Positions 33,854 to 51,630 are shown, counted from the stretch's first letter. The stretch: 64,000 bases of DNA from an uncultured Bacteroidales bacterium (GCA_900319925.1 ONQE01000001.1:8452-72451); one strand, 5' to 3'. Notes: generated from the sequence alone by a model not told the origin. Numbers and translations are program-made.

Positions 33854-34944
33854 TGCTTTACGATTTTGAATGTGTGAATGTTCTGTGCCGAAGACACCCT
33901 CATCAAATATAAGCCCGGCGACAATGCGGAAATGTTCAACTCCGCATTGTCCGAAGCGAATTGTTGGGGGGCGAGCACTGTTTTCCCCATGATGTCAACA
34001 ATGTCGATATTTAGAATATCGGATTGGAAATCAACAGCTTGTATGCTTATTGTGGAAGTGGCGGGGTTAGGGTAAACCTGCCAATAGACACGTTCGGCAA
34101 AATTGGACAGACCCGTATGGAACGGAGTTGCGTCATCACCGAAAATCTTCTCGGCCAGCTCGGGATGGTCAATGAAGGGGTTACGGTTTTGCTGGAGCTG
34201 CCAGACGGCATTGTTGCGGTCAATCTCCTTCTGGCTCACCGGATCGAGGGCAGCCCATTGCAACAACAGCTGCTGTGCCCAGGGTTTGAGGTTTCCGCCG
34301 GAGAAGTTGGACTGTGTCTCCACGCCGAGGTTCTTATCTTTGTAGCAGACGGCCATATAGAAGTAGATACGGGCAAAATCGCCCTTGAAGCTGTCGATGG
34401 GCTCGAACACCTGTCCCGCATAACCGGGAATGTTGGAGGTGCCCACTTTGGAACCGTTGCTGCTGGTCCAAGTGGCGTTTATCACCTTGCCAATGGGCAG
34501 ATTGCCACGTTTGGAATTGACAAAGCCGTCTGTAGGGATGAGATGGAAGAGGTCGGTGTACATCGGAGGGGTGCTGCCGCCGAACCAGCTTTTGGGCACG
34601 GAATGCTCGCGATTGTAACAGTCGCCCTCACCCGAATAATTCCCGCACTGGTCGCTGCCGAAAGTGAAATAGTAGGCTGGTGTACCGCCAGGTCTGTCGG
34701 AGTACATATCCCACACCTTGCCGTTGTCCGGACGCGCGTCTGTCGTGTAGAACGATTGCCACAATTGGCTGTACGACAGGGTAGTATGCGTCTTTATGAT
34801 GTTGTACAGCGCTGTTCGCAACGCCTCGCCGGACTGACCCTCTGCTGCAGTGTAGTAGCCTGCGGGCGCCTGAGCGAAGGAAATTGTCGCAACGAACAGA
34901 AAAAGAGTTACAAAAGGGAAAGATATGTTCTTCATCTTACACAT
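33850..34944 (-). CDS. Endonuclease I family extracellular nuclease with a T9SS sorting domain
   Basis: YNREHSVPKSWFGG and LFHLIPTDGFVNSKRGNLPIG motifs. CTD VYPNPATSTISIQ...GLYLMRVSS..FKIVKQ. The start is more likely MKNISF at 34935. Confidence 0.7.
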   Translation of the reverse strand: MCKMKNISFPFVTLFLFVATISFAQAPAGYYTAAEGQSGEALRTALYNIIKTHTTLSYSQLWQSFYTTDARPDNGKVWDMYSDRPGGTPAYYFTFGSDQCGNYSGEGDCYNREHSVPKSWFGGSTPPMYTDLFHLIPTDGFVNSKRGNLPIGKVINATWTSSNGSKVGTSNIPGYAGQVFEPIDSFKGDFARIYFYMAVCYKDKNLGVETQSNFSGGNLKPWAQQLLLQWAALDPVSQKEIDRNNAVWQLQQNRNPFIDHPELAEKIFGDDATPFHTGLSNFAERVYWQVYPNPATSTISIQAVDFQSDILNIDIVDIMGKTVLAPQQFASDNAELNISALSPGLYLMRVSSAQNIHTFKIVKQ

Positions 34945-35965
34945 GGGTAATCTTATAGATCATTTCCTTCAGCAGTTCGGCATCATCATTACTGGAATCC
35001 ACCCCTTTGCTTTTCAAATCGTATTCCCGCAATATGGAGATGATTTTTGTCAGCTGGGGCAGCGAATGGTTGTTTGCGTAGCCCACGTTCCGGGCCATAA
35101 TGTTCGGGGGCAGATTGCCGAATACGATTCTCAAGGAGTCGTTACTCTTGTCGGGCGAGAGGTGGTAGCGAATCATTTTATGATAGAAGGAGTAGAGCAT
35201 CGTGATGGTGCGGATATTGGGGTTCTCTTTGAGATGGAGTGTGAAGTTGAGCATGATATTGTAGGCTTTCGTCAGATTCCGGCTGCCGAGGGCCTCTTGA
35301 AGCTCGAAAATGTTGTACTCCTTGCTGATACCGATATACTTTTCGACAACGTCCGGAGTAATTTCGCTGTTCGGAGGAAGTACGACCTGCAGTTTTTGGA
35401 ATTCGGTGTAGATGCGCGACAGGTCATTGCCGATATGCTCGCCCAGCACGGCGGCGGTCTGTGGATTGAGCCTGAAGTGGAACGTCTTCTCAGCCAAGTT
35501 TTGAATCCATTCGTTAAGTTTCCAGTCCTTCACGCCTTCCGATTCAAAGACCACGCCGTGTTTGCTGTAGGGCTTGACTTGGGCGGCTTTCATCTTGCCG
35601 TATTTATAACATACGATGAAGATGGTCTGTGGACTCGGATTCTCCGCGTATGTACTCAACAACTCAATGTTTTTCAATTCCTTAGCCTCTTTAAGAATCA
35701 CCACACGGTAGGGGCTGCCGAACGGGAACTGTTTGGCGTTGGCAAGCACCATATCAGCGGTAGTGTCCTTACCGTAGAGCACCACCTGGTTGAAGTCGCG
35801 CTCCTCGGGTTCGAGAATGCCCTCCTCGAACATCTTGCAGAGTCTGTCGATGAAAAACGGCTCTTCCCCATGCAGCAGATAGACCGGCGCGAACCGTTTC
35901 TCGCGGATTTGCTGGTCTATCGCGTCAAATGTCACCGATTTGCTGGAACTTTCCTTTTTCGCCAT
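34937..35965 (-). CDS. holA: DNA polymerase III subunit delta
   Basis: 342 aa. N-terminal FAPVYLLHGEEPFFIDRL and a length typical of HolA. Confidence 0.65.
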   Translation of the reverse strand: MAKKESSSKSVTFDAIDQQIREKRFAPVYLLHGEEPFFIDRLCKMFEEGILEPEERDFNQVVLYGKDTTADMVLANAKQFPFGSPYRVVILKEAKELKNIELLSTYAENPSPQTIFIVCYKYGKMKAAQVKPYSKHGVVFESEGVKDWKLNEWIQNLAEKTFHFRLNPQTAAVLGEHIGNDLSRIYTEFQKLQVVLPPNSEITPDVVEKYIGISKEYNIFELQEALGSRNLTKAYNIMLNFTLHLKENPNIRTITMLYSFYHKMIRYHLSPDKSNDSLRIVFGNLPPNIMARNVGYANNHSLPQLTKIISILREYDLKSKGVDSSNDDAELLKEMIYKITHV

Positions 35966-36062
35966 ATTCTGATTCTAAGATTCCCAAGGCTCCGCTTCGC
36001 CCCACCCTGGGCTAACATACGTCGGGCCTACAGCCATATAAATATAGTGTAGTTAAAAGTTG

Positions 36063-36332
36063 TTAAAAATAGTGCTCCGCGACTTGGAAGATGGTTTTCT
36101 CGTCCGGTTCATACAGGTTCTTGACACCAATAGTGATGAAATCGGCGATGCGGTGCTGACGGTACCCTTCGGGAATCTTTCCGGGACTGTCAAGGATGAT
36201 GTCGAAAGTTTCAGGATGGATGCCCACCTCCACATCAGTGGGGTATTTCGTAAAATGGTGCAGGAATTCGTCAATCTTGTCAACCAAAGCGTTGCCAAGG
36301 GCGGCTGCGGTCTCTATTTTCTGTCCGTTCAT
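36063..36332 (-). CDS. Hypothetical small protein (89 aa)
   Basis: Has its own -7 box 21 nt upstream. No family recognised. Confidence 0.45.
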   Translation of the reverse strand: MNGQKIETAAALGNALVDKIDEFLHHFTKYPTDVEVGIHPETFDIILDSPGKIPEGYRQHRIADFITIGVKNLYEPDEKTIFQVAEHYF

Positions 36333-36353
36333 ACTGTCTCAGTTTTTGAGCCG

Positions 36354-36361
36354 CAAAGATA
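36354..36361 (-). promoter_or_regulatory. -7 promoter box
   Basis: Minus strand reads TATCTTTG. Confidence 0.55.
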
Positions 36362-36406
36362 CATTTTTTATGTTGACGGCTTACATGGACCGTCAAGATG
36401 AAGATT

Positions 36407-36868
36407 CTATCCCAATGCCTCTCTCACGTAGTCGATGAACTTCTTCAGATTTGTCCGTCCGTACAACCAAATAACCCGTTCTTTTTCACCCAAACCGCTG
36501 ACAACCACAAAATTGGAGCAACCTCTTTCGTCTTTTTCAGAGGCACAGATTTTCAAGAGGTAGTCTGCGTCGTTGAGTTCAAACACCACCTTGAAATTCT
36601 CCGTGGCTTTGTTTATATCTTGATTGAACTTCTTGTATTTGTGACTTTTATGCTTGGCATCGCAGGAGAGGATTTTCACGAAGGAGGCGTTGTGCGCAAT
36701 CAAATTCAGCCAGACGGGCTTCTGGTCCCCATATTCGAATTTCTCGAAATGGCGTTTGTTATCGTACTTTTTGAACAGTTTGTCCATGTCAGCCGACTGT
36801 GCGAAAGCGCCGCAGGAAAGGGTGATGCAGAGCAACATCAATCCGATTTTGTGCAATACGATTTTCAT
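36407..36868 (-). CDS. Secreted protein, possibly DUF4252
   Basis: 153 aa with a signal peptide. The family assignment is from memory only. Confidence 0.45.
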   Translation of the reverse strand: MKIVLHKIGLMLLCITLSCGAFAQSADMDKLFKKYDNKRHFEKFEYGDQKPVWLNLIAHNASFVKILSCDAKHKSHKYKKFNQDINKATENFKVVFELNDADYLLKICASEKDERGCSNFVVVSGLGEKERVIWLYGRTNLKKFIDYVREALG

Positions 36869-36925
36869 TTTTTTCGATTTATTTGATGAATCCGATTTGC
36901 ATAAACGGTGTTAACGGTCAAAAGT

Positions 36926-38947
36926 TTAATATTCCCGAATTCTGTTCTCGATGGCCACAATGGCGTCGCGGAACTGGGCGGCCTTTTCGAAGTCCAGCTC
37001 CTTCACGGCTTTTTCCATCTCCTTTCGAAGCTGTTTTTTCTTCTTCTCCAACTGTTCCACATTGTATAATGTCAAGTCTTCCGCCGCCATCGGCAGTTTT
37101 TTCTCTTTCCGCTCGTATGTCACGCCCATGCGCTGCTTGTTGCCCTCGCTGGCCATGCCCGTGAGCAGCATCTCGTCCGACTTCACCACACCTTTCGGCA
37201 CAATGTGATGTAACTCGTTGTAGGCTATCTGCTTAGAACGGCGACGGTTTGTCTCGTCAATGGTAGCCTGCATCGATTTGGTAATCTGGTTGGCGTAAAA
37301 GATGACCCTGCCGTTCACGTGGCGTGCGGCGCGGCCGGCCGTCTGTGTGAGCGACCGCACATTGCGCAGGAAACCCTCCTTGTCGGCATCCATGATGGCT
37401 ACCAAGGAGACCTCCGGCAAGTCCAGACCTTCACGCAAGAGGTTCACCCCCACGAGCACGTCGATGGCACCGGCACGCAGGTTCTGCAAAATCTCCACTC
37501 GGTCAAGCGTTTCCACGTCGGAGTGGATGTAACAGGAGCTGACCCCGATATTGATCAGATACGTGTTGAGCTCTTCGGCCATGCGCTTGGTCAAGGTCGT
37601 CACCAACACGCGTTCGCCTTTATCCACAGTGTCTTCGATTTCGTTGAGCAGGTCGTCCACTTGATTAGTGGCGGGGCGCACCTCTATCGGGGGATCCAAC
37701 AGACCGGTCGGCCGGACCACCTGTTCGACCACTACCCCACCCGACTGTTCCAGCTCGTAGTCTGCCGGCGTGGCACTCATATAGATGGTCTGCCCCACCA
37801 GCGCTTCGAACTCGTCGAACTTCAACGGACGGTTGTCCAACGCGGCGGGCAAGCGGAATCCGTACTCCACCAAGTTGATTTTACGGGAACGGTCGCCGCC
37901 GTACATGGCCCCGATCTGCGGCACGGTGACGTGGCTTTCGTCAATCACCAACACGAAATCCTCGGGGAAGAAGTCGAGGATGCAGAACGGGCGCATTCCC
38001 GGCTCGCGCTTGTCGAAGTAGCGGGAATAATTCTCAATGCCAGAACAGTAACCCAACTCCTTCATCATCTCCACATCATACGTCACGCGATCTTCCAACC
38101 GTTTGGCTTCCAAATGTTTGCCAATGGATTTGAAGTAGTCGCGCTGTTCGCCCAAATCCAATACAATCTGGTTGATAGCCTCGTTCATGGTCTGTTGTGT
38201 CGTCACGAAAAGGCTGGCCGGATAGATGACCAGCTTTTCCTCTTTAGAGATGACCCCGCCGGTTGCGGCCTCTATAATCGACAGTGACTCAATCTCATCG
38301 TCCCAGAAGATGATGCGGTAGGCTTGTTCGCTGTAGGGCGGAAAAATATCGACTGTGTCGCCTTTCACACGGAACTGTCCCGGCTGGAGATCCAGTTCCG
38401 TGCGCGAATAGAGACTGGCTACAAATTTGAGCAACAGTGAGTTGCGGTCGATAACCATCCCTGTTTTCAGGTGAATGACATTCCGGGCGAAATCGTCGGG
38501 GTTTCCAATACCGTAAATACAAGAGACTGAAGCCACTACAATCACATCCCGTCTTCCCGACATCAGCGCGGCCGTGGTGTGAAGACGCAGCTTTTCGATT
38601 TCGTCATTGATCGACAAATCCTTCTCAATATAGGTGTTTGTGGTGGGGATGTAAGCCTCCGGTTGATAGTAATCGTAGTAGGAAACGTAATATTCCACAG
38701 CGTTTTCCGGGAAAAACTGCTTGAACTCGCTATATAATTGGGCGGCGAGCGTCTTATTGTGGCTCAATACGAGGGCGGGGCGATTCACTTGACTCAACAC
38801 ATTGGCAATGGTGAATGTCTTTCCAGAGCCTGTCACGCCGAGCAGTGTCTGTGCCTTGTCGCCGCGGTTCAACCCCGCCACCAACTGTTTGATGGCCTCG
38901 GGCTGGTCTCCGGACGGTTGATATGACGATACTAATTTGAAATCCAT
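36926..38947 (-). CDS. uvrB: Excinuclease ABC subunit B
   Basis: 673 aa. Walker A GVTGSGKTFT, helicase motifs and a C-terminal UVR domain (LDFEKAAQFRDAI). Confidence 0.95.
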   Translation of the reverse strand: MDFKLVSSYQPSGDQPEAIKQLVAGLNRGDKAQTLLGVTGSGKTFTIANVLSQVNRPALVLSHNKTLAAQLYSEFKQFFPENAVEYYVSYYDYYQPEAYIPTTNTYIEKDLSINDEIEKLRLHTTAALMSGRRDVIVVASVSCIYGIGNPDDFARNVIHLKTGMVIDRNSLLLKFVASLYSRTELDLQPGQFRVKGDTVDIFPPYSEQAYRIIFWDDEIESLSIIEAATGGVISKEEKLVIYPASLFVTTQQTMNEAINQIVLDLGEQRDYFKSIGKHLEAKRLEDRVTYDVEMMKELGYCSGIENYSRYFDKREPGMRPFCILDFFPEDFVLVIDESHVTVPQIGAMYGGDRSRKINLVEYGFRLPAALDNRPLKFDEFEALVGQTIYMSATPADYELEQSGGVVVEQVVRPTGLLDPPIEVRPATNQVDDLLNEIEDTVDKGERVLVTTLTKRMAEELNTYLINIGVSSCYIHSDVETLDRVEILQNLRAGAIDVLVGVNLLREGLDLPEVSLVAIMDADKEGFLRNVRSLTQTAGRAARHVNGRVIFYANQITKSMQATIDETNRRRSKQIAYNELHHIVPKGVVKSDEMLLTGMASEGNKQRMGVTYERKEKKLPMAAEDLTLYNVEQLEKKKKQLRKEMEKAVKELDFEKAAQFRDAIVAIENRIREY

Positions 38948-38963
38948 TGTTGCGGCAAAAATA

Positions 38964-38995
38964 CAAAAAAACGCCGAGGGTTAGTCGGCGTTTTC
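38964..38995 (-). terminator. Intrinsic terminator of the OMP gene
   Basis: Minus strand reads ACGCCGA ctaaccc TCGGCGT followed by TTTTTTTG. Confidence 0.65.
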
Positions 38996-39015
38996 GTTAG
39001 GTCTATAACTATTGA

Positions 39016-39573
39016 TTAGTGGAATCTGTAACGGAGGCCGACACCGAAGTTGTAGAGACCACCGAGAACAGCGTCGCGTCTTGTGTAATAGGGATTCACC
39101 ATGCCCATTACGTTAATCATCGGGCGCCAGTCAACCGTGAGGTTCAACGGAATACTGAACTGCCATTCAAAACCAATCTGACCACCGACATTCAGGCGGA
39201 AAGGCATGTAAGGTGCATCATAGTAGTCATCGGTATAAATCAGACCATCATAAATAGAACCTTTTCTGCTGAAATGACCATATCCAGAACCATAACCAAA
39301 ACCGACACCAGCAGAGGGACCCACGAACCAGTTCCAAATTCCCTTGATGTTAAATACCCAGTCTAAAGAGACATTGGCATTTGCAGAAGCGAAAGTTGTC
39401 CAGAGATCACCAAAACCGGCAGTCAAATCCAAATACATCCCATCATTCAAAGAATGTTGGTAGGAGAATTCCTCATAATTCCAACCCAGACGACCGCCAA
39501 TGGCACGGGGTTGCGCGAAAGCGACGCTTGCAACGGCAAGCATGACAATCATTGTTGTAAAAATCTTCTTCAT
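39016..39573 (-). CDS. Small outer-membrane beta-barrel protein
   Basis: 185 aa. Signal peptide, alternating aromatic/Gly-rich strands, and a C-terminus GVGLRYRFH. Confidence 0.65.
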   Translation of the reverse strand: MKKIFTTMIVMLAVASVAFAQPRAIGGRLGWNYEEFSYQHSLNDGMYLDLTAGFGDLWTTFASANANVSLDWVFNIKGIWNWFVGPSAGVGFGYGSGYGHFSRKGSIYDGLIYTDDYYDAPYMPFRLNVGGQIGFEWQFSIPLNLTVDWRPMINVMGMVNPYYTRRDAVLGGLYNFGVGLRYRFH

Positions 39574-39725
39574 AATGTTTGAAATTTTGAATTTGAAACC
39601 GCAAAATTAGTCTTTTTTAACACTATTCTCTTTTCTAAACAAAAATAGTTATAAACAGATTCATATTCATAACCTTTTGACCATATATCCTTTTAATGAC
39701 GTGAGCGTGCAACCCAAAAATTTCC

Positions 39726-39733
39726 TATCTTTG
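39726..39733 (+). promoter_or_regulatory. -7 promoter box for metG
   Basis: TATCTTTG, 45 nt upstream of the ATG. Confidence 0.6.
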
Positions 39734-39778
39734 CGCTTTTCATCTGAAAATAGAAATACCAACTAAAATACTGATAAT

Positions 39779-41827
<2,049 letters not shown>

Positions 41828-41876
41828 TTAATAATTTGGTATTATACATTAAGAATTTATATACAATACTACTCAA

Positions 41877-41915
41877 ACGTAGGGACGCAGATTTTAGCGT
41901 CCCTACGTGTTTTCA
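41877..41915 (+). terminator. Intrinsic terminator of metG
   Basis: 12-bp perfect stem ACGTAGGGACGC agatttta GCGTCCCTACGT followed by GTTTTC. Confidence 0.7.
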
Positions 41916-42082
41916 CACAACCTTTTTATATACAGTCCGTTGCATTAAAAGTGCCCTAAAATAGGGAGTTTTCAAAGATATAAACAAAAAAATGAGTATG
42001 AGAAAATTACAGCGTTACCAACATTAAAATGTTCATAAAATGGCGAGTTTTCCAAATAACGCAAGTTACGGTTTCAAATCTT

Positions 42083-42322
42083 GGTGGATAAAAATTGGAA
42101 AAGTTTTGATTCCACAATTTCGTCCATTTTTGAACACATTTTGTCAACTTTTCAACCCGTGGAAAAAACCACTTTTTATCCACTCAAAAAAATTTGAAGA
42201 AAGTTGTCGGGGATGTTTCCCCTCTCAAAATCCGTGAGTTACTATTAACATTATCCACATTCAGCTGTTAATTAAAATTGATAACTCACTTTTCAAAATT
42301 TTCGGGCAAAATAATATCCACA
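42083..42322. other. DnaA-box cluster; candidate oriC core or DnaA-regulated region
   Basis: TTATCCACA at 42251-42259 is a perfect match. One-mismatch boxes: TTATCCACT at 42176-42184, ATATCCACA at 42314-42322, and GGTGGATAA at 42083-42091 (reverse complement TTATCCACC). Weaker boxes at 42158-42166 and 42108-42116. All lie in a 630-bp AT-rich non-coding gap. Confidence 0.4.
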
Positions 42323-42429
42323 TTTCAACAGCCATAATAATCATAGAGAATAAAATTTTATCTCTATTAAAATAACAGATTTTGCTGAATTGGTTTTTGT
42401 TTGACGGCCGCTTACATTCATCTTTTTTG

Positions 42430-42437
42430 TATTTTTG
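42430..42437 (+). promoter_or_regulatory. -7 promoter box for rpiB
   Basis: TATTTTTG, 23 nt upstream of the ATG at 42461. Confidence 0.55.
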
Positions 42438-42460
42438 CGGCCATTATAGAATTATAGGAA

Positions 42461-42886
42461 ATGAAGATTTACATTGGATCAGACCATGCTGGAGTTGACC
42501 TCAAAACGTGCGTGAAAGAACGTTTCGGAGGCCGTTTTGAGTTTAATGATTTGGGGACTTTCACGTCTGAAAGCGTGGATTATCCCGATTTCGCCCATCC
42601 GGTGGCGGAAAACGTGTTGAAGGATAACGGGTCATTCGGCATCCTGATTTGCGGCACAGGCAACGGGATGGCGATCACGGCTAACAAGCATGCCGGCATC
42701 CGTGCCGCGCTGTGCTGGTCGCCCGACATCGCCGCGCTCGCCCGTCAGCACAACAACGCCAACATCATCGTGTTGCCCGCCCGCTTCATCTCTCCTGAAA
42801 CCGCCATTGAAACGTTCGAGGCTTTCTTCAGTGCGCAGTTCGAAGGCGGAAGGCATCAAAGAAGAATAGACAAAATCAACCTCTGA
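42461..42886 (+). CDS. rpiB: Ribose-5-phosphate isomerase B
   Basis: 141 aa. MKIYIGSDHAGVDLK and ICGTGNGM. Confidence 0.9.
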   Translation: MKIYIGSDHAGVDLKTCVKERFGGRFEFNDLGTFTSESVDYPDFAHPVAENVLKDNGSFGILICGTGNGMAITANKHAGIRAALCWSPDIAALARQHNNANIIVLPARFISPETAIETFEAFFSAQFEGGRHQRRIDKINL

Positions 42887-42888
42887 TT

Positions 42889-44001
42889 ATGAAACCGCCC
42901 TTTTCAGACCAGGATTTCGAGAGCATCCGCAGGAAAGCCTACGCCCTTCGTCATAACTACTTTGACGATATGGAGAAGTATTTGCTCAACCTTGAGGCCG
43001 CCCTGCAGCGGAAAGGTCTGGATGTGTTGTGGATCAAGGACAGGGATTCCCTGACCGATTCCATCAACTCACTGGTTGGCAAACTGAATGTCAGACGGAT
43101 GTCTTTCGATACGGAGATTCCGTTCGAGCCGGTTTTCCAGAATCGTGCCGAGATTGTTCCTTTGGAGACAGAGGAAACTTCCTCGGATGATTTGGACTTG
43201 TTGGTCATCAACGCCGATTTGGCGGTTTGTGATTCCGGTTCGCTGGTTTTTTTGGACAGAAAATCGCAATGCTGTTTCAATAAAGTCAAAAATTTGGCGG
43301 TCATTGTCAATATAGACCAATGCGTCGCCTTTCAACAGGATCTCTCCTTCTTCATCGCTTTGAAGTATGCGTTCAAAGAAAACAAGATGCCGTTGGATAT
43401 CAAAGTGGTGCAGGAAAAGGCCAATTACGTGTTGCCTTCCGATTTCTCCTATCTCTCCGACCAGATGTTCACCCAAGAGGCTATGAACATCACGGTAATT
43501 CTCTATCTTAATGATATAGAGGATATTATAACGTCAGAAATCTTGAAGGAGTCATTGTATTGTGTCCAATGCGGACGTTGTCTTGAAGTTTGTCCTGTGG
43601 CCTCTTCGCATGACAATATCTCCCCGATTGATTTGATCAAGTTGAACAGTTTGGACAGGTATAACAAGTCGCAGCATCTTTTCTCCCACACGACGCTTTG
43701 CGGTGCTTGCGAGTCGGTGTGCCCGGTGAAGATTCCGTTGATTCGTTTGATGCTTTCGGAGATGCAGGTGTCGAATATGGTGGTTAAACCATCTCGCGCT
43801 AAAATGCTCTATTCGTTGTTCTCCAAACGTAGTAAACTGAACAAATTCAATAATTCGTTCTTGAAATTTTTCTTCATAAAGCGATTCTTTGGCAGAAATA
43901 AGAACTTGAACCGCTACTTTTCAGGTCAAAACAGTGATTTTTTCAATATAACCTACGAACCTCCATACGAAGACAATCCGAATGAACTCATCAAAGATTG
44001 A
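42889..44001 (+). CDS. LUD-domain/4Fe-4S dicluster protein (LutB-like)
   Basis: 370 aa. Two ferredoxin-type motifs, CVQCGRCLEVCP and CGACESVCP, follow an N-terminal LUD-like region (INADLAVCDSGSLVFLD). Confidence 0.6.
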   Translation: MKPPFSDQDFESIRRKAYALRHNYFDDMEKYLLNLEAALQRKGLDVLWIKDRDSLTDSINSLVGKLNVRRMSFDTEIPFEPVFQNRAEIVPLETEETSSDDLDLLVINADLAVCDSGSLVFLDRKSQCCFNKVKNLAVIVNIDQCVAFQQDLSFFIALKYAFKENKMPLDIKVVQEKANYVLPSDFSYLSDQMFTQEAMNITVILYLNDIEDIITSEILKESLYCVQCGRCLEVCPVASSHDNISPIDLIKLNSLDRYNKSQHLFSHTTLCGACESVCPVKIPLIRLMLSEMQVSNMVVKPSRAKMLYSLFSKRSKLNKFNNSFLKFFFIKRFFGRNKNLNRYFSGQNSDFFNITYEPPYEDNPNELIKD

Positions 44002-47000
44002 ACTCTTGAATGACAAAATCAGGCAGTTTTTGAAGAAATTCTACCTGGACAAACTGTACAAAGGGATTATTCTCTTTGTCATCATTTTATTGGCTACTTT
44101 CATAGCCTTTTCCCTGTTTGAGTACTTCTCCTACTCGAACACGGTAGTCCGTTCTATCCTTTTCTATTCGTTCATTGCCCTTGCCGCTGGGATCGGTATA
44201 GCTTACATTCTCATACCTGCGTTGAAAATCGGCGGACTTGGAAAACAGTTGACCAATGAAGAGATAGCGGATATCATTGGTAGGCATTTCGACCAAATAG
44301 ATGATAAATTACTGAATCTATTTGAGTTACAGAAACAGATGGAGCGTGGTGACTATCAAAGTTACGATTTGCTCACCGCTGCTATTGACAGTAAGATAGA
44401 TTCGTTCAAGGCTTATTCGTTTGTGCAGGCCATACCTGTGGAGAAAACCAAGCGTTTCGCCCTTTGGATGTTGCTTCCGATTGCGATTTTTCTGCTGTTG
44501 TTCTCGATAAAGAAAGAGTTGTTTACGGAACCGACCAAGCGTATCGTACATCATACGGAAGTTTACGAGAAGCCTGCCCCTTATTCGTTCATTATCACCA
44601 ATGACACCTTGAACGCTTTCCAATATGAGGATTTTACAGTCAATGTGAAAGTGGAAGGCAGCGAAGTGCCTGACGAGGTTTATATCAAGTATAAGAACCG
44701 TAACTACAAATGTCAGAAAAACGCCAATTCGGAGTTTTCGTACACGTTTACGAATTTACAGCAAAATGTAGATTTTCAGATTAATACGGATGAAGTGACG
44801 TCCACTGTTTACGAAATCAAGGTCCTGCCAAAACCGGTGATGCTCGGTTTCAATATGTCGTTGCATTATCCGTCGTATCTCAACAAACCGGATGAAGTGT
44901 TGGAGAACGTCAGTAATGTTACGGTTCCTGAAGGTACGCAGATTACTTGGAACTTCATCACCCGTAATTCAGAAAATCTTATACTCATAGTTGATGATAA
45001 TCAAAAGGTTATATCATCTGATAAAGATAATTATCTCGTAAATGTAACCGCCCGCAACTCCTTTACGTATTCTATTCTGAATAAAAATAAATTTATGACA
45101 GGTAAGGATACGCTGACAGATGAGGTGACCGTTATCAAGGACATGTACCCTGAGATTTTCGTGCAGTCCCAGCAGGATTCCGCGTACCATGACCGTGTCT
45201 ATTTCAAAGGTAACATCAAGGATGACTATGGTTTTACTAAATTAGTCTTTGTCTATAACAAACTTGACAAAGATGGTAAATTATTGTCTTCCAATACAGT
45301 AGTGCCTATTAAAATACAAAATGGCGTTACTATTCAGGACTTTTATTACTACTTTGACCAAAGTATGTTCAATCTCAATCCTGGCGAGCAGATTGAATAT
45401 TACTTCCAAGTATTTGATAATGATGGTGTTAACGGTGCAAAATCAACTAAATCATCCGTTCAAAGCTATAGAGTGCGCACGATGGATGAGATAGAGGAAG
45501 ATATGCACAACGCTGAAGAACAGACTAAGTCTGATTATGCTGATTTGTTGAAAGAATCCAAAGATTTAGCCAAGGAAATCGAAAAGATGCAGCAGAAGAT
45601 GCAGCAGGAAAAAGAACTTTCTTGGCAAGACAAGAAGAATTTGGAGAAGTTGATGAAGGATTATCAGAAGCTTCAAGATCAAATCAACGAGCTCAAGCAA
45701 AAGCAGGAAAACCATCAGCAGGTTGAAAACCAGTATAAACAGATTGATGAAGATATCTTGAGAAAGCAGCAGGAGCTTCAAAAACGGATGGATGAAATCC
45801 TTTCGGATGAGATGAAGCAGATGATGAAGGAGCTGGAGCAGATGATGCAGAATATGGATAAGGACAAAATCCAGCAGCAGATGGAGAAGATGAAGCTTTC
45901 TTCGGAAGACATCAATAAATCCTTGGATCAGCAACTTCAGTTGTATAAGCAGTTGGAAGTGGAGAAAAAACTGAATGAAACGGTTAACAAGATGCGTGAC
46001 TTGGCCGATGAACTGCGTAAAAACGCTGCCAAGACTGAAGACAAACAGAACTCCAAAGAATCGCTTCAAAAACAACAGCAGGAGCTTCAAAAGAAGTACG
46101 ATGATTTGAAGAAGGATATTCAGGATTTAAAGCAGATGAACAATGAACTTGAAGATCCGACTGATTTTAAGGATAACCAGGAGCTTCAGAAGGATGCCGA
46201 CCAAAATATGCAGCAGAGTCAGCAGAATTTGGAAAAAGGTAATCGTTCAAAGTCTGCTGACAACAAAAAGAAGGCAGCTGATGATATTGATCAGATGGCC
46301 GAGCAGATGGAACAAGACTTCAACGAAAGCCAGTTGGAAAGCATAACCGAGGATATAGCGACGATACGTCAGATATTGGACAACTTGGTCAAGATTTCCT
46401 TCGATCAGGAGGATGTAATGAAACGTGCTCAAAAGATGTCTTCCTATTCTGCTTCTGCTTCCGATGTTATGCGCAAACAATTCGAGGTGAAGCAGACTAT
46501 GAAGCACATTGAAGATTCTTTGAGTGCGTTAGCGCGTCGTCAGGCTGCTGTGAAGCCTTTCATCCAAAAAGAGGTTACCAAAATCCAGAGTAATATAGAG
46601 ACTTCACAAACGGAGTTACAGAACCGTCGTATGTCCATGGCTGCCAAAAATCAGCAATTTGCTTTGACTTCGATGAATAATCTTGCTTTGATGTTGATGG
46701 AGTCCATGAACGATATGCAGGATCAGCAGAAGCAGAGTCAGTCGAAATGCAACAAGGCAGGTAATGGATCCTGCAATAAGCCTGGTGGAAAAGGTAAGTC
46801 AAAGAAGGCTTCTGCGCGGGAATTGCAACAACAATTAAACCGTCAGATGGAAGCGATGAAGAAGTCTATGGAGCAACAGGCGAAACAGGGTCAGACCGGG
46901 CAGCCAAAGAGTATGAGTGAGCAGTTCGCCAAAATGGCGGCGCAGCAAGAGGCTATCCGGAAGATGTTACAGGACTATCAATCCGAGCAGAAACAATTGA

Positions 47001-47335
47001 ATGGGGTAGGGGATAAGGCATTGGACAAGATCATTGAGGATATGCAAAAGACAGAGAAGGATCTTGTGAATCGTCAGATTACCCAACAGACCATTAATCG
47101 TCAGAAAGACATTACCACACGTTTGTTGCAAAGCGAGCGTGCGGATATGGAACGTGAAAAAGACAATGAGCGTAAATCGAATGAGGCAAGACAGGTACCG
47201 AATATCAATCCTCCCAAGGATTGGAATTTTGACCGTCAGCAGATTCAGCAGAATGAGATGTTGCGTTCTGTGCCCGCGAACTTGAACTATTACTATAAGT
47301 CCAAGGCGAACAACTATTTTTATAACATTGATTAG
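43982..47335 (+). CDS. Large membrane-anchored coiled-coil protein (DUF4175-like)
   Basis: 1117 aa. Two N-terminal TM segments, a beta-rich middle, then roughly 550 aa extremely rich in Q/K/E/M/D. 20-nt overlap with the upstream gene. The family name is from memory only. Confidence 0.6.
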   Translation: MNSSKIELLNDKIRQFLKKFYLDKLYKGIILFVIILLATFIAFSLFEYFSYSNTVVRSILFYSFIALAAGIGIAYILIPALKIGGLGKQLTNEEIADIIGRHFDQIDDKLLNLFELQKQMERGDYQSYDLLTAAIDSKIDSFKAYSFVQAIPVEKTKRFALWMLLPIAIFLLLFSIKKELFTEPTKRIVHHTEVYEKPAPYSFIITNDTLNAFQYEDFTVNVKVEGSEVPDEVYIKYKNRNYKCQKNANSEFSYTFTNLQQNVDFQINTDEVTSTVYEIKVLPKPVMLGFNMSLHYPSYLNKPDEVLENVSNVTVPEGTQITWNFITRNSENLILIVDDNQKVISSDKDNYLVNVTARNSFTYSILNKNKFMTGKDTLTDEVTVIKDMYPEIFVQSQQDSAYHDRVYFKGNIKDDYGFTKLVFVYNKLDKDGKLLSSNTVVPIKIQNGVTIQDFYYYFDQSMFNLNPGEQIEYYFQVFDNDGVNGAKSTKSSVQSYRVRTMDEIEEDMHNAEEQTKSDYADLLKESKDLAKEIEKMQQKMQQEKELSWQDKKNLEKLMKDYQKLQDQINELKQKQENHQQVENQYKQIDEDILRKQQELQKRMDEILSDEMKQMMKELEQMMQNMDKDKIQQQMEKMKLSSEDINKSLDQQLQLYKQLEVEKKLNETVNKMRDLADELRKNAAKTEDKQNSKESLQKQQQELQKKYDDLKKDIQDLKQMNNELEDPTDFKDNQELQKDADQNMQQSQQNLEKGNRSKSADNKKKAADDIDQMAEQMEQDFNESQLESITEDIATIRQILDNLVKISFDQEDVMKRAQKMSSYSASASDVMRKQFEVKQTMKHIEDSLSALARRQAAVKPFIQKEVTKIQSNIETSQTELQNRRMSMAAKNQQFALTSMNNLALMLMESMNDMQDQQKQSQSKCNKAGNGSCNKPGGKGKSKKASARELQQQLNRQMEAMKKSMEQQAKQGQTGQPKSMSEQFAKMAAQQEAIRKMLQDYQSEQKQLNGVGDKALDKIIEDMQKTEKDLVNRQITQQTINRQKDITTRLLQSERADMEREKDNERKSNEARQVPNINPPKDWNFDRQQIQQNEMLRSVPANLNYYYKSKANNYFYNID

Positions 47336-47346
47336 TATAACTGTTT

Positions 47347-47766
47347 ATGATAGAGATTTTACTTACTGATTTGAACAATGAGAATTTTTACAGGGAGACG
47401 CTGAAAACTATCGAATCCATTTGCGATGAGTATTCGATAGGGGAGCATTTCGGTACGTTGTCCATGGCCAACCAGATGATATGTGACTATCTAGAGTCGA
47501 AGTCATCTGTTGTAGCGAATGTGGCGTTTCGTATCGACAGTGATGAAGTGTCATTTGACTATTCTTTGACGAATGGCGACTTCAGTTCCTTCTCCCAGGG
47601 TGATGAAGCGGATAACACAAGTATGTTCGTCTTGAGACGTCTGGCGGATGAGGTTTCCTTTTCAACTGATTATGATACCCTTACAACCACTTTCCACGTG
47701 AAAACAAAAATGACGGTCCATAGAAATCCGCAACGAGTGGCTGTAAAATCTAAAATCTTCAGTTGA
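47347..47766 (+). CDS. Hypothetical protein (139 aa)
   Basis: ORF in operon context. No family recognised. Confidence 0.45.
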   Translation: MIEILLTDLNNENFYRETLKTIESICDEYSIGEHFGTLSMANQMICDYLESKSSVVANVAFRIDSDEVSFDYSLTNGDFSSFSQGDEADNTSMFVLRRLADEVSFSTDYDTLTTTFHVKTKMTVHRNPQRVAVKSKIFS

Positions 47767-47769
47767 TAG

Positions 47770-48816
47770 ATGAAGAACATAGTATCGCTAATATTATGTT
47801 TGTTTTGCTCCATTTGGGTATATGCCCAATCGAGTAGGGTGTTGTTCATTGGTAACAGTTATACTTCAGTCAATAACCTTCCAGAGTTAATCTCTCAAAT
47901 TTATTCATCCACCGGAGAGAGTATGGAATATGTCATGAGTGCTCCCGGTGGCTGTACCTTTCAGCAACATTGCTCGGTATCGCTTCCCTACATTCAGCAA
48001 GGAAATTGGGATTATGTCGTTTTGCAGGAACAGAGTCAGTTGCCCTCCTTTCCAGAGAGCCAGTTTATGCAGGAGTCCTATCCATACGCACAAGAGTTGT
48101 GCTCTTTGATAAGGCAATACAATCCGGATGCAAAGATTATGTTTTATATGACGTGGGGTCGCAAGAATGGTGATCCGCAAAACGGACAGTATTATCCACC
48201 TCTGAATACATACGAAGGTATGGACAGTTTGTTGCATGCTCGCTATTTGATCATGGCAGAGGACAATGATGCTTGCGTTTCCCCTGTCGGAGCCGTATGG
48301 CATTCGATACGTGACCAATATCCTGACATGGAACTATATCAGTCAGACGGCAGTCACCCTTCCTATTTTGGATCATACGTGGCTGCTTGTTCTTTCTATA
48401 CATCCTTTACCGGCCGAAATCCGCTCGATATTCAATGGAATGGTACTCTTGATGGTCCGTCCGCTGATATCGCCAAGAATGCGGCAAAAAGGGTTGTCTA
48501 TGACTTTCTCTCGAGTTGGTGTTTTGAAACAGACACCACGCAAATTGATTCGACGCCCGTGGTTGATAAGATAGTCGATACGGTTTATGTCTATCCTAAC
48601 CCTGCCAATACCACGCTTCATATTCATATTCCTGAATCTTTTGGTTCTGGCGGTTCTCTCATGATTTTGGGTGAGAATGTCATAGCTTACCAGCAAGTGG
48701 GTTTGGATAGCGACATTATCTTGAATGTTTCTCAATTCCCAAGTGGGTTATACTTTTTGGTCGTGAACTTAGGAGGTTTCAAACGTGCGTTTAAGAAGTT
48801 CACCATTGTACATTAG
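47770..48816 (+). CDS. SGNH/GDSL-like hydrolase with a T9SS sorting domain
   Basis: Signal peptide, block I-like FIGNSYT, DGSHP near the end of the catalytic domain, and CTD VYVYPNPANTTLHIHI...GLYFLVV. Confidence 0.6.
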   Translation: MKNIVSLILCLFCSIWVYAQSSRVLFIGNSYTSVNNLPELISQIYSSTGESMEYVMSAPGGCTFQQHCSVSLPYIQQGNWDYVVLQEQSQLPSFPESQFMQESYPYAQELCSLIRQYNPDAKIMFYMTWGRKNGDPQNGQYYPPLNTYEGMDSLLHARYLIMAEDNDACVSPVGAVWHSIRDQYPDMELYQSDGSHPSYFGSYVAACSFYTSFTGRNPLDIQWNGTLDGPSADIAKNAAKRVVYDFLSSWCFETDTTQIDSTPVVDKIVDTVYVYPNPANTTLHIHIPESFGSGGSLMILGENVIAYQQVGLDSDIILNVSQFPSGLYFLVVNLGGFKRAFKKFTIVH

Positions 48817-48818
48817 TT

Positions 48819-49241
48819 ATGATAAGTTTCGATTTTGTTTGTGAAAGCAACTTCAAGCCATCGGTAAAACACAAGATATGGCTTCAGCAAGTAATCCGCA
48901 CAGAAGGGAAAACTCCTGGTGATATTTCCTATATTTTCTGTGGTGACGAATATATGCTGGAGCGAAACATCGCCTTTTTGAATCACGACACTTATACCGA
49001 TATCATCACTTTTGACGAGTGTGTTGGAGATGTTGTATCCGGTAGTATTCTGATCAGTGTTGACAGGGTGGGGGAGAATGCAGTGATGTTTAACAAGACT
49101 TACGAAAATGAGTTTTTACGAGTCCTTGTACACGGAACATTCCATCTTTGCGGTTATAAGGATAAAACGGAATCGGAAGCTAAACTCATGCGCCAAAAAG
49201 AGGATGAGGCCTTGGCATTATTAGCTGATTCAAATTTATAA
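48819..49241 (+). CDS. ybeY: rRNA maturation RNase YbeY
   Basis: 140 aa with the metal motif [11 protein letters not shown]. Confidence 0.85.
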
Positions 49242-49285
49242 CCAATTTACTATCAGAAAATTTCGAATATTTTTCACGTGAAAAG

Positions 49286-51163
49286 ATGAGGGACTGTTAC
49301 GATATCATAGTGGTGGGTGCAGGTCATGCGGGATGCGAGGCCGCCGTTGTTTCGGCCAAGCTTGGGAACAGTGTTCTTCTCATTACGATGAACCTTGCCC
49401 TCGTGGCGCAGATGTCGTGCAACCCGGCTATTGGAGGTATCGCCAAAGGACAAATTGTTCGCGAAATAGATGCGTTGGGTGGTATGACGGGTATTGTGAC
49501 CGACCATACCATGATCCAGTACCGAATGCTCAACCGTTCGAAGGGACCCGCTATGTGGAGTCCGAGGGCACAGTGCGACAAAACAGCCTTTTCCTTGTAT
49601 TGGAAACATATTCTTGAAAATACTCCTAATCTCCATCTTCGTCAAGATACCGTGACCGAATTGTTATTTGATGCGGATAGGGTCATTGGCGTCAAGACGC
49701 AATTGGGTAAGACTGTTCTCTCAAAGAAAGTCATTCTCACTAACGGTACTTTTTTGAACGGACGTATTCATGTCGGGGAGGTTAATTTTTCCGGCGGTAG
49801 GATAGGGGAGAGTGCTTCTTTCATTTTGTCCGACCAATTGAAAGAGCGTGGCATCGTTACGAAAAAACTCAAAACCGGAACCCCTGTCCGAATTGATGGA
49901 CGGACTGTCGATTTCTCCAAAATGGAAGAACAACCCGGTGAAAACCCTCCGGGACGTTTTTCGTTCACCAATACCCCTCCTCTTCACCGGCAGCTCAGTT
50001 GCTGGATTACCTATACCAACGAGCAAGTACACCAAGTACTCCAAAAGGGTTTCGAAAAGTCCCCTATGTTCCAGGGACGCATCCAAGGTGTGGGTCCCCG
50101 TTATTGTCCGTCCATAGAAGATAAAATCGTTCGTTTCGCTGACCGTACACGTCACCAACTCTTTCTTGAACCGGAGGGACGCAATACAAATGAATATTAC
50201 CTCAACGGTTTTTCCTCCTCTCTTCCTGAAGATATTCAGGTGGAGGCCCTCCATCTGATTCCTGGATTGGAACAAGCCGAGATATACCGTCCGGGTTATG
50301 CCATCGAGTATGACTATTTCGACCCGATGCAGTTGCGTTATACGCTTGAATCGAAAATTATCGGAAACCTTTATCTTGCCGGACAGGTGAACGGAACCAC
50401 CGGTTATGAGGAGGCGGCGTGTCAAGGACTCATGGCAGGCATCAACGCACATCTCTCCCTTGCCGAAAAAGATCCTTTGATTTTGACCCGTTCACAGGCT
50501 TACATCGGTGTGCTCATTGACGATCTGATTACGAAAGGTGTCCAGGATCCCTATCGCATGTTCACTTCGCGAGCTGAATACCGCATTTTGTTGCGACAGG
50601 ACAATGCCGACCAAAGGCTTACTCCGATAGGCAATCAGTTGGGTCTGATTGATGCGGAACGCTATGAGGAATTTCTCCACAAATACGATCTGCAGACGCA
50701 AATCACCGACTACCTTCGAAGCCATACTACCCACTTTCAAACGCTCAATGAGCTGCTCGTTAAACGGGAAACTTCTCCCTTGAATCAAAATGTCAAATTG
50801 GAAAATGTATTGCTCCGTCCCCAAATCTCCATTCAGGATCTGATGGATTATGATCGTGAGTTTGCCTATTTCCTGCAACAGATTGGTGCCGATTCAGAAC
50901 AGATTACCAACGCCGAAACGAGTATAAAATACAGCAGCTATATTCAGAAGGAGGAAGAAATGGTGCAACATCTCACCAATCTCGATGCTATTAAGCTGCC
51001 TCTCGATTTGGATTATCCAAACATCAATTCTTTGTCGAAAGAGGCGCGTGAAAAGCTGTCCAAACTCCAACCCGCAAATCTGGGGCAAGCCTCTCGCGTC
51101 AGTGGTGTGAGTCCAGCCGATATTACCGCACTGATGATTTATCTTAGGACTTGTGATTTGTGA
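49286..51163 (+). CDS. mnmG: tRNA uridine 5-carboxymethylaminomethyl modification enzyme MnmG (GidA)
   Basis: 625 aa. FAD motif [12 protein letters not shown]. The last codons and the stop lie inside a heptamer array. Confidence 0.95.
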
Positions 51164-51313
51164 TTTGTGATTAGTGAGGTGTGATTTGTGATTTGTGAAT
51201 TGTGATTTGTGATTTGTGAATTGTGATTTGTGATTAGTGAGGTGTGATTAGTGAGGTGTGATTAGTGAGGTGTGATTAGTGAGGTGTGATTAGTGAGGTG
51301 TGATTAGTGGTAG
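51153..51313. repeat. Heptamer array, family C (GTGATTT/GTGATTA/GTGAGGT/GTGAATT), 23 units
   Basis: Hand-parsed and contains no C at all. It ends in six copies of the 14-mer GTGATTAGTGAGGT. The mnmG stop (51161-51163) is inside unit 2. Confidence 0.9.
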
Positions 51314-51576: not shown

Positions 51577-51630
51577 CAATCCGTTTCTTGGATAAGATTA
51601 TTTTACCAACAACAGTCAAAAGAATACATT

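What the first reader, a model, noticed from the sequence alone, without database searches (positions are those of the whole stretch)
41828..42460. Candidate chromosomal replication origin: DnaA-box cluster in an AT-rich 630-bp gap at a gene-strand switch
This is the longest non-coding gap in the window and is markedly AT-rich. It holds one perfect TTATCCACA (42251), three one-mismatch boxes (42083 in reverse, 42176, 42314) and two weaker ones. They are followed by a very AT-rich stretch (about 42336-42385) that could serve as an unwinding element. To the left, seven consecutive genes (33416-39573) are on the minus strand. To the right, eleven consecutive genes (42461-52755) are on the plus strand. 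That is the divergence expected around an origin. metG (plus strand) is the single exception. mnmG (gidA), a classic origin-proximal gene, lies 7 kb away. dnaA is not in the window.
Basis: partly seen in the sequence, partly recalled or inferred. Interest (0 to 1): 0.7.

Follow-up and report, generated by a model that had tools for sequence, protein, structure and literature searches.

The report
Probable chromosome replication origin, rumen Bacteroidales
The 633-bp gap between metG and rpiB has the sequence features of a bacterial chromosome replication origin, which makes it a well-supported but ordinary origin in an uncultured rumen bacterium.

Summary
The metG–rpiB gap (41828-42460) is the longest non-coding stretch in the window and is 31% GC. 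It carries four DnaA boxes with at most one mismatch within 240 bp, against 0.25 expected (P about 1.5e-4).

The interpretation as oriC is well supported but not proven. The last box is followed by a second 8-mer box, a GCC spacer, four DnaA-trios and one of the five least stable 40-mers in the window. That is the published origin unwinding module (BUS). A 450-bp non-coding core is 70-84% identical to related species, while 4-fold sites of flanking genes are only 33-57% identical. The same module sits upstream of rpiB in more distant Bacteroidales. In many Bacteroidota, a long box-rich gap upstream of rpiB coincides with a minus-to-plus GC-skew flip (17/24 loci vs 3/31 controls, p=4e-6). Two parS-like palindromes lie 5-7 kb away beside mnmG.

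Caveats:
- The skew signal inside this window alone is not significant.
- The rest of the genome, including the dnaA region, could not be examined.
- Nothing here is experimental.

Verdict: probable oriC (about 0.85), a new member of a known kind, of modest interest.

The parts
39779..41827 (+). metG (methionine--tRNA ligase), the left flanking gene. It would be transcribed head-on to a fork leaving the gap.
   Evidence: NCBIfam NF001100, E 8e-262
41877..41908 (+). Perfect 12-bp stem hairpin, likely the metG terminator and not part of the origin core.
   Evidence: Inverted repeat I4. Relatives keep the hairpin with compensating changes, GGGACGC/GCGTCCC versus GAGACGC/GCGTCTC.
41943..42055 (+). 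Two copies of a 34-nt direct repeat (41943-41976 and 42022-42055). Each ends in a weak box-like GAGTTTTC(C/A)AA. Their role is unknown; they may be low-affinity DnaA or accessory-protein sites.
   Evidence: Repeat family D1. The block ATGCCCTAAAATAGGGAGTTTTCAAA is invariant in 5 sequences.
42083..42091 (-). DnaA box TTATCCACC (1 mismatch), in the opposite orientation to the others.
   Evidence: Conserved in L008 and L009; a 1-mismatch TTATGCACA is at the same place in L010.
42108..42166 (.). Weak box-like sites: GATTCCACA 42108-42116 (+), TTTTGAACA 42128-42136 (+), TTGTCAACT 42141-42149 (+), TTTTCCACG 42158-42166 (-).
   Evidence: TCCACA and ATTTTTGAACA are invariant in alignment A1.
42176..42184 (+). 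DnaA box TTATCCACT (1 mismatch).
   Evidence: Invariant in window, L005, L008, L009 and L010.
42251..42259 (+). Perfect DnaA box TTATCCACA.
   Evidence: It reads TTATTCACA in L009 and L010.
42314..42322 (+). DnaA box ATATCCACA (1 mismatch), the upstream box of the tandem pair in the unwinding module.
42323..42330 (+). Second, degenerate 8-mer box TTTCAACA, directly abutting the first.
   Evidence: The 9-mer plus 8-mer layout matches the DoriC BUS rows of Salinibacter ruber and Chitinophaga pinensis. L012 and L017 have equivalent tandem pairs.
42331..42333 (+). GC-rich spacer GCC.
   Evidence: Invariant in A1. The spacer is identical (CGG on the complementary strand) in the C. pinensis BUS row.
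42334..42345 (-). Four DnaA-trios. The top strand reads ATA ATA ATC ATA; the bottom strand reads 3'-TAT TAT TAG TAT-5' with a central A in each.
   Evidence: This meets the published rule of at least 3 NAN trios within 16 bp of a box with at most 2 mismatches (PMC8287927). The block GAACAGCCATAATAATCATAGAGAA is nearly invariant across species.
42335..42385 (.). AT-rich candidate DNA unwinding element.
   Evidence: 20% GC. The 40-mer 42335-42374 is among the top five least stable in 64 kb.
42430..42437 (+). TATTTTTG, a match to the Bacteroidetes -7 promoter element TAnnTTTG. This is the rpiB promoter, downstream of and separate from the box cluster.
   Evidence: Invariant block TTATCTTTTTTGTATTTTTGC in A1. 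The consensus is from established knowledge of Bacteroides promoters.
42461..42886 (+). rpiB (ribose-5-phosphate isomerase B), the right flanking gene.
   Evidence: NCBIfam NF004051, E 1e-53
47691..47704 (.). parS-like palindrome TTTCCACGTGAAAA.
   Evidence: Conserved in L008, L010 and L012.
49271..49284 (.). parS-like palindrome TTTTCACGTGAAAA, directly upstream of the mnmG start codon. A perfect parS (TGTTCCACGTGGAACA) occupies the same position in L017.
49286..51163 (+). mnmG (gidA), a classic origin-proximal gene.
   Evidence: TIGR00136, E 3.5e-257

Best explanation
The metG–rpiB gap is the DnaA-dependent chromosomal replication origin (oriC) of this uncultured rumen Bacteroidales genome. 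The following mechanism is inferred, not shown. DnaA occupies the stronger boxes: 42083 on the minus strand, and 42176, 42251 and 42314 on the plus strand. With the weaker intervening sites it forms an oligomer directed rightward. From the tandem box pair at 42314-42330 it extends across the GCC spacer onto the DnaA-trios of the bottom strand (42334-42345). This stretches and melts the adjacent AT-rich element (about 42335-42385). The replicative helicase is loaded there, and forks leave in both directions. The rpiB promoter (-7 element at 42430-42437) lies just beyond the unwinding element and is a separate feature. The parS-like sites beside mnmG, 5-7 kb to the right, would be the segregation sites of the origin region.
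For: Shown here:
- Box cluster: four DnaA boxes with at most one mismatch within 240 bp against 0.25 expected, P about 1.5e-4, the densest cluster in the window.
- Unwinding module: the layout is [9-mer box][8-mer box][GCC][4 trios][AT-rich]. It satisfies the published BUS search rules and has the same format as the DoriC-based BUS rows for Salinibacter ruber and Chitinophaga pinensis.
- Low stability: the 40-mer 42335-42374 is among the five least stable in 64 kb.
- Purifying selection: the non-coding core 41940-42390 is 84%, 70% and 57% identical to L008, L010 and L012. The 4-fold degenerate sites of flanking genes are only 41-57%, 33-48% and 35-41% identical.
- Conservation of the module: it is retained upstream of rpiB in L012 and L017 although the left flank differs.
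- Skew in relatives: raw GC skew changes from negative to positive exactly at the homologous gap in L010, L012 and L017. L017 has mostly plus-strand genes on both sides.
- Skew across Bacteroidota: 17 of 24 loci with a gap of at least 350 bp upstream of rpiB show the flip, against 3 of 31 short-gap loci. Mean delta is +0.102 against -0.008, Mann-Whitney p = 4e-6.
- Box enrichment in those gaps: 45 exact TTATYMACA boxes against 2.6 expected.
- parS: canonical sites lie within 10 kb of rpiB in six loci. Positional homologues in variant form lie at 47691 and 49271 in the window.

From the literature: in Bacteroidetes oriC is commonly far from dnaA (PMC4755523).
Against: - Within this window alone the replication-associated skew is weak. 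Regression of GC3 skew on gene strand and side gives +0.024 ± 0.023 (t = 1.0). The left arm shows essentially no expected lagging-strand signal.
- Only about 61% of coding DNA left of the gap is on the minus strand.
- No canonical parS is present in the window. The variant sites differ from the consensus at the outer positions, and their binding by ParB is unproven.
- The rest of the genome, including the dnaA region, could not be examined, so a stronger candidate elsewhere is not excluded.
- In many long-gap loci gene orientation and side are confounded, so the cross-phylum skew evidence rests partly on control loci showing little intrinsic coding-strand skew.
- There are no experimental data.
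Confidence: 0.85

Rival explanations
1. The gap is a DnaA-binding regulatory locus rather than the origin. It could be a DnaA-controlled promoter region for rpiB, or a DnaA-titrating or DnaA-recycling site analogous to E. coli datA or DARS.
For: A DnaA-box cluster conserved upstream of the same gene in many lineages is what a conserved operator would also look like. The within-window skew is not significant.
Against: - The boxes lie about 110-350 bp upstream of the conserved -7 promoter element rather than overlapping it.
- The tandem-box, spacer, trio and AT-rich module is an unwinding device with no role in repression.
- About 450 bp is under selection, far more than an operator needs.
- GC skew flips at the homologous gap in relatives.
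- In L033 and L043 the box cluster and skew flip lie about 9.7 kb from rpiB. In lineages with short rpiB upstream gaps, including Chitinophagaceae and Pedobacter loci, rpiB has no boxes at all. rpiB therefore does not need them.
Confidence: 0.07
2. The gap is a relic or secondary origin. The sequence descends from the ancestral Bacteroidota oriC next to rpiB, but initiation in this genome now occurs mainly at another locus.
For: The replication skew in the left arm of this window is weak or absent. Origins do move relative to rpiB within the phylum.
Against: Strong purifying selection on the boxes, the trios and the spacer between species whose synonymous sites are saturated argues for current function. 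Bacterial chromosomes with two active DnaA origins are very rare (established knowledge).
Confidence: 0.05
3. The gap is a chance accumulation of box-like words in an ordinary AT-rich intergenic region that holds a terminator and a promoter.
For: AT-rich spacers contain many TTAT-like words. One-mismatch boxes occur 24 times in the window.
Against: Simulations with the gap's own composition give P about 1.5e-4. The boxes and the trio block are conserved across species. Rfam finds no RNA family in the gap.
Confidence: 0.02

Closest known systems
Basal unwinding system (BUS) of bacterial origins (B. subtilis incC, H. pylori oriC2; Richardson 2016, Pelliciari 2021 PMC8287927)
   Same: The window has a tandem pair of same-orientation DnaA boxes with the better box upstream. 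A short GC-rich spacer follows, then at least three trinucleotides with a central A on the strand bound by DnaA, then an AT-rich region. The window's module meets the published search rule.
   Different: The trios here are TAT/TAG rather than the preferred GAT. The second box is an 8-mer abutting the first. No binding or unwinding data exist.
DoriC-predicted origins of other Bacteroidetes-group genomes (Chitinophaga pinensis DSM 2588, Salinibacter ruber M8)
   Same: The module format is nearly identical. C. pinensis reads GTTTTCACA-TATTCACA-GCC-CTAATAGTAGTG. S. ruber reads TTATCCACA-TTTCCACA-CGA-CTAATAATA. The window reads ATATCCACA-TTTCAACA-GCC-ATAATAATCATA.
   Different: There is no detectable sequence homology outside the module. 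The flanking genes in those genomes are unknown to me. In the Chitinophagaceae loci fetched here, rpiB has a short upstream gap without boxes.
Cytophaga hutchinsonii oriC, reported as experimentally confirmed in the DoriC 5.0 paper (Xu et al. 2012, cited in PMC3531139)
   Same: Same phylum. It is a DnaA-box-based oriC located away from dnaA, consistent with the DoriC prediction.
   Different: That origin supports autonomous plasmid replication. This one is untested, and its sequence is unrelated at the level I could test.
E. coli oriC (gidA–mioC intergenic region)
   Same: It has a DnaA-box cluster with a flanking AT-rich unwinding element, mnmG/gidA nearby, and dnaA not adjacent.
   Different: The window has no GATC/SeqA sites and no 13-mer repeats. 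The boxes are spaced 63-93 bp apart rather than in tight arrays. gidA is 7 kb away rather than adjacent.
E. coli datA / DARS DnaA-regulatory loci
   Same: Clusters of DnaA boxes outside coding sequence.
   Different: Those loci lack an unwinding module and are not at the skew switch. No such loci are known in Bacteroidota.

Membership tests
DnaA-dependent bacterial chromosomal origin (oriC) | Statistically enriched cluster of DnaA boxes in an intergenic region | tested here: met
   Four boxes with at most one mismatch in 240 bp against 0.25 expected, P about 1.5e-4. This is the densest cluster in 64 kb.
DnaA-dependent bacterial chromosomal origin (oriC) | AT-rich, thermodynamically unstable unwinding element next to the boxes | tested here: met
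   42325-42399 is 20% GC. 42335-42374 is among the five least stable 40-mers of the window.
DnaA-dependent bacterial chromosomal origin (oriC) | Box–spacer–DnaA-trio module oriented toward the unwinding element (BUS) | tested here: met
   The module ATATCCACA|TTTCAACA|GCC|ATA ATA ATC ATA satisfies the rule in PMC8287927. Its format matches published rows, and the block is nearly invariant in relatives.
DnaA-dependent bacterial chromosomal origin (oriC) | Location at the genome-wide GC-skew minimum, where leading-strand polarity switches | tested here: inconclusive
   Within the window the side effect is +0.024 ± 0.023, not significant. A local flip is visible. A clear flip occurs at the homologous gap in L010, L012 and L017 and in 17 of 24 long-gap loci against 3 of 31 controls. 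The whole genome is not available.
DnaA-dependent bacterial chromosomal origin (oriC) | Non-coding sequence conserved among related species beyond neutral expectation | tested here: met
   The core is 84% and 70% identical to L008 and L010, against 41-57% and 33-48% at 4-fold sites of flanking genes.
DnaA-dependent bacterial chromosomal origin (oriC) | Proximity to origin-region markers (dnaA, dnaN, gidA/mnmG, parS) | tested here: inconclusive
   mnmG is 7 kb away. Two parS-like variant palindromes lie at 47691 and 49271. No canonical parS is present, and no dnaA. In Bacteroidetes dnaA is usually not near oriC.
DnaA-dependent bacterial chromosomal origin (oriC) | Best DnaA-box, trio and AT-rich candidate in the genome | not testable with these tools
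DnaA-dependent bacterial chromosomal origin (oriC) | Function: DnaA binding, unwinding, autonomous replication, marker-frequency peak | not testable with these tools
   These are experimental tests.
DnaA-repressed or DnaA-activated promoter | DnaA boxes overlapping or immediately adjoining the core promoter elements | tested here: not met
   The nearest strong box ends at 42322, 108 bp upstream of the conserved -7 element at 42430-42437. In L033 and L043 the cluster lies about 9.7 kb from rpiB.
datA / DARS-type DnaA-regulatory locus | Box cluster without an unwinding module, located away from the skew switch | tested here: not met
   An unwinding module is present. The skew flips at the homologous loci.
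parS (ParB-binding centromere-like site), for the 47691 and 49271 palindromes | 16-bp palindrome close to TGTTNCACGTGNAACA | tested here: inconclusive
   The inner 12-14 bp palindrome TTTYCACGTGAAAA is retained, but the outer G/C positions are T/A. There are three mismatches to the B. subtilis-type consensus. L017 has a perfect parS at the homologous position.

The most novel reading that the evidence does not exclude
The origin next to rpiB may be an ancient, conserved arrangement shared by Bacteroidales and Flavobacteriales. rpiB would then be a useful origin indicator gene for Bacteroidota, and no tool I could check uses it (the Ori-Finder 2022 list). Separately, the 'species-specific DnaA box' TGTTCCACG used for several Bacteroidetes genomes in DoriC-derived tables is half of the parS palindrome. 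Some database origins and unwinding modules for this phylum would therefore be centred on parS sites near mnmG, several kb from the true DnaA-box cluster.
Probability: 0.4. Interest if true: 0.45.

Novelty: new member of a known kind. Interest (0 to 1): 0.35.

Why it matters
Locating oriC in an uncultured rumen Bacteroidales gives an anchor for several uses. It helps order contigs and supports growth-rate estimates from metagenomic read depth (peak-to-trough ratio). It could also serve as the basis for oriC-type shuttle vectors in a group with no genetic tools. The wider pattern, a box-rich gap with a skew flip upstream of rpiB in many Bacteroidota, could improve origin prediction in a phylum where dnaA is a poor guide. 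The apparent use of a parS half-site as a 'DnaA box' in published tables bears on the same problem. The mechanism itself is textbook.

Tried and rejected
- Rfam at the gathering threshold on the whole window, and at E up to 1 on 41700-42600, found no RNA family in the gap.
- The small ORFs in the gap (up to 65 aa, one of them called as a gene in L005) were not taken as genes. The region aligns as non-coding with conserved box blocks.
- The sigma-70 promoter and terminator scan gave no more hits than shuffles, and it is not suited to Bacteroidetes promoters.
- A canonical parS search (TGTTCCACGTGGAACA, up to 3 mismatches) found nothing in the window. A symmetric variant was found only after reading the position homologous to L017's parS.
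- Fuzzy matching and blastn-short of published Bacteroidetes BUS sequences against all loci gave no homologous origin hits. The only real matches were parS sites.
- Regression of GC3 skew on strand and side within the window was not significant. The per-locus regression is confounded where the left genes are all minus and the right genes all plus, so I relied on raw skew against control loci.
- Literature searches for a link between rpiB and oriC found nothing relevant.
- I could not tie the rpiB gap to DoriC coordinates in a closed genome. The homologue search returned mostly unnamed metagenomic proteins.
- The 205-bp divergent gap at 39574-39778, where the strand switch actually occurs, has no DnaA box with at most one mismatch and was rejected as the origin.

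Full report
**What the window is.** The rpiB protein encoded at 42461-42886 occurs with identical sequence on 22 metagenomic contigs, several from rumen assemblies, with the same gene order as the window. The nearest species-level genomes are uncultured rumen or goat Bacteroidales, with RpiB 79-88% identical. T9SS sorting domains agree with Bacteroidota. The gap 41828-42460 lies between metG (39779-41827, +) and rpiB (+). To the left are uvrB, holA and others on the minus strand. To the right are an Fe-S protein, a 1117-aa protein, ybeY, mnmG and two rubrerythrins on the plus strand.

**Checking the observation.**
- Simulations that keep the gap's own AT-rich dinucleotide make-up expect 0.25 boxes with at most one mismatch, and four are seen (P about 1.5e-4). 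Ten boxes with at most two mismatches are seen against 3.0 expected.
- No other 300-bp stretch of the window holds more than this.
- The gap is the longest non-coding stretch (633 bp, 31% GC).
- The AT-rich stretch is real: it is 20% GC, and 42335-42374 is one of the five least stable 40-mers in 64 kb.
- Two minor corrections apply. Nine rather than eleven plus-strand genes follow the gap. The strand switch itself is one gene to the left, at 39574-39778, a 205-bp gap without any box.

**Anatomy.** Reading left to right:
- A 12-bp-stem hairpin at 41877-41908 is kept in relatives through compensating changes. It is most simply the metG terminator.
- Two copies of a 34-nt repeat follow, at 41943-41976 and 42022-42055.
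- A reverse box lies at 42083.
- Several weak box-like sites lie at 42108-42166.
- Three forward boxes lie at 42176, 42251 and 42314, spaced 75 and 63 bp apart.
- The last box, ATATCCACA, abuts an 8-mer TTTCAACA (42323-42330), then GCC, then ATA ATA ATC ATA (42334-45), then the AT-rich element.
- On the complementary strand the trios read 3'-TAT TAT TAG TAT-5'.
- This meets the published rule for the basal unwinding system: a box with at most 2 mismatches, a spacer of at most 16 bp, and at least 3 NAN trios (PMC8287927).
- In that paper's own notation the module would read TATAGGTGT|AAAGTTGT|CGG|TATTATTAGTAT. The format is the same as the rows for Chitinophaga pinensis (CAAAAGTGT|ATAAGTGT|CGG|GATTATCATCAC) and Salinibacter ruber (AATAGGTGT|AAAGGTGT|GCT|GATTATTAT).
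- Further right, TATTTTTG at 42430-42437 matches the Bacteroidetes -7 promoter element (established knowledge) and is invariant in relatives. The rpiB promoter is therefore a separate feature downstream of the boxes.

**Selection.**
- Between the window and L008, L010 and L012, the 4-fold degenerate sites of metG, rpiB, the 1117-aa gene and mnmG are 41-57%, 33-48% and 35-41% identical. That is close to saturation.
- The non-coding core 41940-42390 is 84%, 70% and 57% identical to the same three loci.
- The block GAACAGCCATAATAATCATAGAGAA, which covers the second box, the spacer and the trios, is almost invariant.
- L012 (RpiB 67%) and L017 (62%) have different left flanks. Both keep a tandem box pair followed by a short spacer and A/T-rich trinucleotides at the same distance from rpiB.
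- About 450 bp of non-coding DNA under this much constraint is more than a promoter or operator needs.

**Is it at the replication switch?** Inside the window the answer is not clear.
- GC3 skew is dominated by a coding-strand effect (-0.125).
- The side term for a breakpoint at the gap is +0.024 ± 0.023, which has the right sign but is not significant. The left arm shows almost no signal.

The relatives are more informative.
- Raw skew in 2-kb bins flips from negative to positive exactly at the homologous gap in L010 (-0.06 to -0.14, then +0.05 to +0.13), L012 and L017.
- In L017 most genes on both sides are on the plus strand, so gene orientation cannot explain the flip.
- Across the 55 rpiB loci with enough flank, those with a gap of at least 350 bp upstream of rpiB show left<0<right in 17 of 24 cases, against 3 of 31 for gaps under 200 bp.
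- Mean right-minus-left difference is +0.102 against -0.008 (Mann-Whitney p = 4e-6).
- Short-gap loci have the same skew sign on both sides and almost no intrinsic coding-strand term.
- The long gaps hold 45 exact TTATYMACA boxes against 2.6 expected, 45 times the density of the flanks.
- In L033 and L043 a cluster of 4-5 boxes and the skew flip lie about 9.7 kb upstream of rpiB. The cluster is therefore not tied to the rpiB promoter.

**parS.**
- A blastn of published Bacteroidetes 'BUS' sequences against the loci hit a 16-bp palindrome, TGTTCCACGTGGAACA. This is the parS sequence of the ParABS literature (e.g. PMC4368675).
- It flanks ybeY and mnmG within 10 kb of rpiB in L016, L017, L021, L025, L039 and L085.
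- The window has no canonical copy.
- At the position where L017 has a perfect parS, directly upstream of the mnmG start, the window has TTTTCACGTGAAAA (49271-49284). A second copy, TTTCCACGTGAAAA, is at 47691-47704.
- Two such sites are found where 0.34 are expected, and both are conserved in L008 and L010, one also in L012.
- I read these as a lineage variant of parS, which would place the segregation sites 5-7 kb from the box cluster. Binding by ParB is an inference.

**dnaA.** No dnaA is present in the window (Pfam on the DnaA-sized ORFs). This matches the statement in PMC4755523 that in Bacteroidetes oriC is commonly far from dnaA. I could not inspect the dnaA region of this genome.

**Rivals.**
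- A DnaA-regulated rpiB promoter or a datA/DARS-like site (0.07) would explain conserved boxes. It would not explain the unwinding module, the 450-bp constraint, the skew flips, or the separation of cluster and rpiB in L033 and L043.
- A relic or secondary origin (0.05) is hard to square with the constraint on the trios and spacer.
- Chance (0.02) is excluded by the statistics and by the conservation.

**Comparison with what is known.** This is a standard DnaA-box origin with a BUS-type unwinding module. It resembles in format the DoriC-predicted origins of other Bacteroidetes-group genomes. It resembles in principle the origin of Cytophaga hutchinsonii, which the DoriC 5.0 paper reports as experimentally confirmed. 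It differs from E. coli oriC in lacking GATC sites and 13-mers and in the wide spacing of its boxes. I found no paper linking rpiB to oriC, and rpiB is not among the Ori-Finder 2022 indicator genes.

**Verdict.** It is a probable oriC (0.85), a new member of a known kind. Interest is modest (0.35), because a specialist would expect an origin to look like this. The side observations are worth a follow-up on closed genomes: the origin–rpiB linkage across Bacteroidales and Flavobacteriales, and a parS half-site serving as the 'DnaA box' in published Bacteroidetes tables.

Noticed in passing
Pelliciari 2021 supplement rows; L016, L017, L025, L039: The supplement lists the 'species-specific DnaA box' ACAAGGTGC (5'-TGTTCCACG) for Flavobacterium johnsoniae, F. 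psychrophilum, Paludibacter propionicigenes and Flavobacteriaceae bacterium 3519-10. This motif is half of the parS palindrome TGTTCCACGTGGAACA. The listed 'BUS' sequences begin with a full or near-full parS palindrome. Those origin and BUS calls are probably centred on ParB sites rather than DnaA boxes.
   Followed up: partly
L016 16068-18041; L017 2045-3965; L021 20014; L025 12247-14138; L039 16047-17989; window 47691-47704 and 49271-49284: parS sites consistently flank ybeY and mnmG in diverse Bacteroidota. One often lies directly upstream of the mnmG start codon. The window's lineage carries a symmetric variant TTTYCACGTGAAAA at the same positions.
   Followed up: partly
L008-L087 (rpiB ±10 kb in 80 Bacteroidota species): In many Flavobacteriales and several Bacteroidales, rpiB sits immediately right of a long AT-rich gap full of TTATYMACA boxes where GC skew flips. 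In L033 and L043 the same kind of cluster is about 9.7 kb upstream. rpiB looks like an origin-proximal marker for much of the phylum, but not in the Chitinophagaceae or Pedobacter loci fetched here.
   Followed up: partly
window 51346-51385, 51467-51506, 54078-54117: Very AT-rich stretches carry TTGATAATCAA-type palindromes upstream of and around the two rubrerythrin genes (51574-52170 and 52204-52755) and the next operon. They look like Fur/PerR-type operator boxes.
   Followed up: no
window 1-64000: Third-codon-position GC skew is dominated by a coding-strand bias toward C (strand coefficient -0.125, t = -5.9). Replication-associated skew is weak. Region 42-57 kb is also lower in GC (38-47%) than the left part (50-60%).
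   Followed up: partly
window 43982-47335: A 1117-aa protein has no NCBIfam match but is strongly conserved (87-93% identity in L008 and L010, 66% in L012). It keeps its place between the Fe-S protein and ybeY/mnmG next to the origin. Its function is unknown.
   Followed up: no
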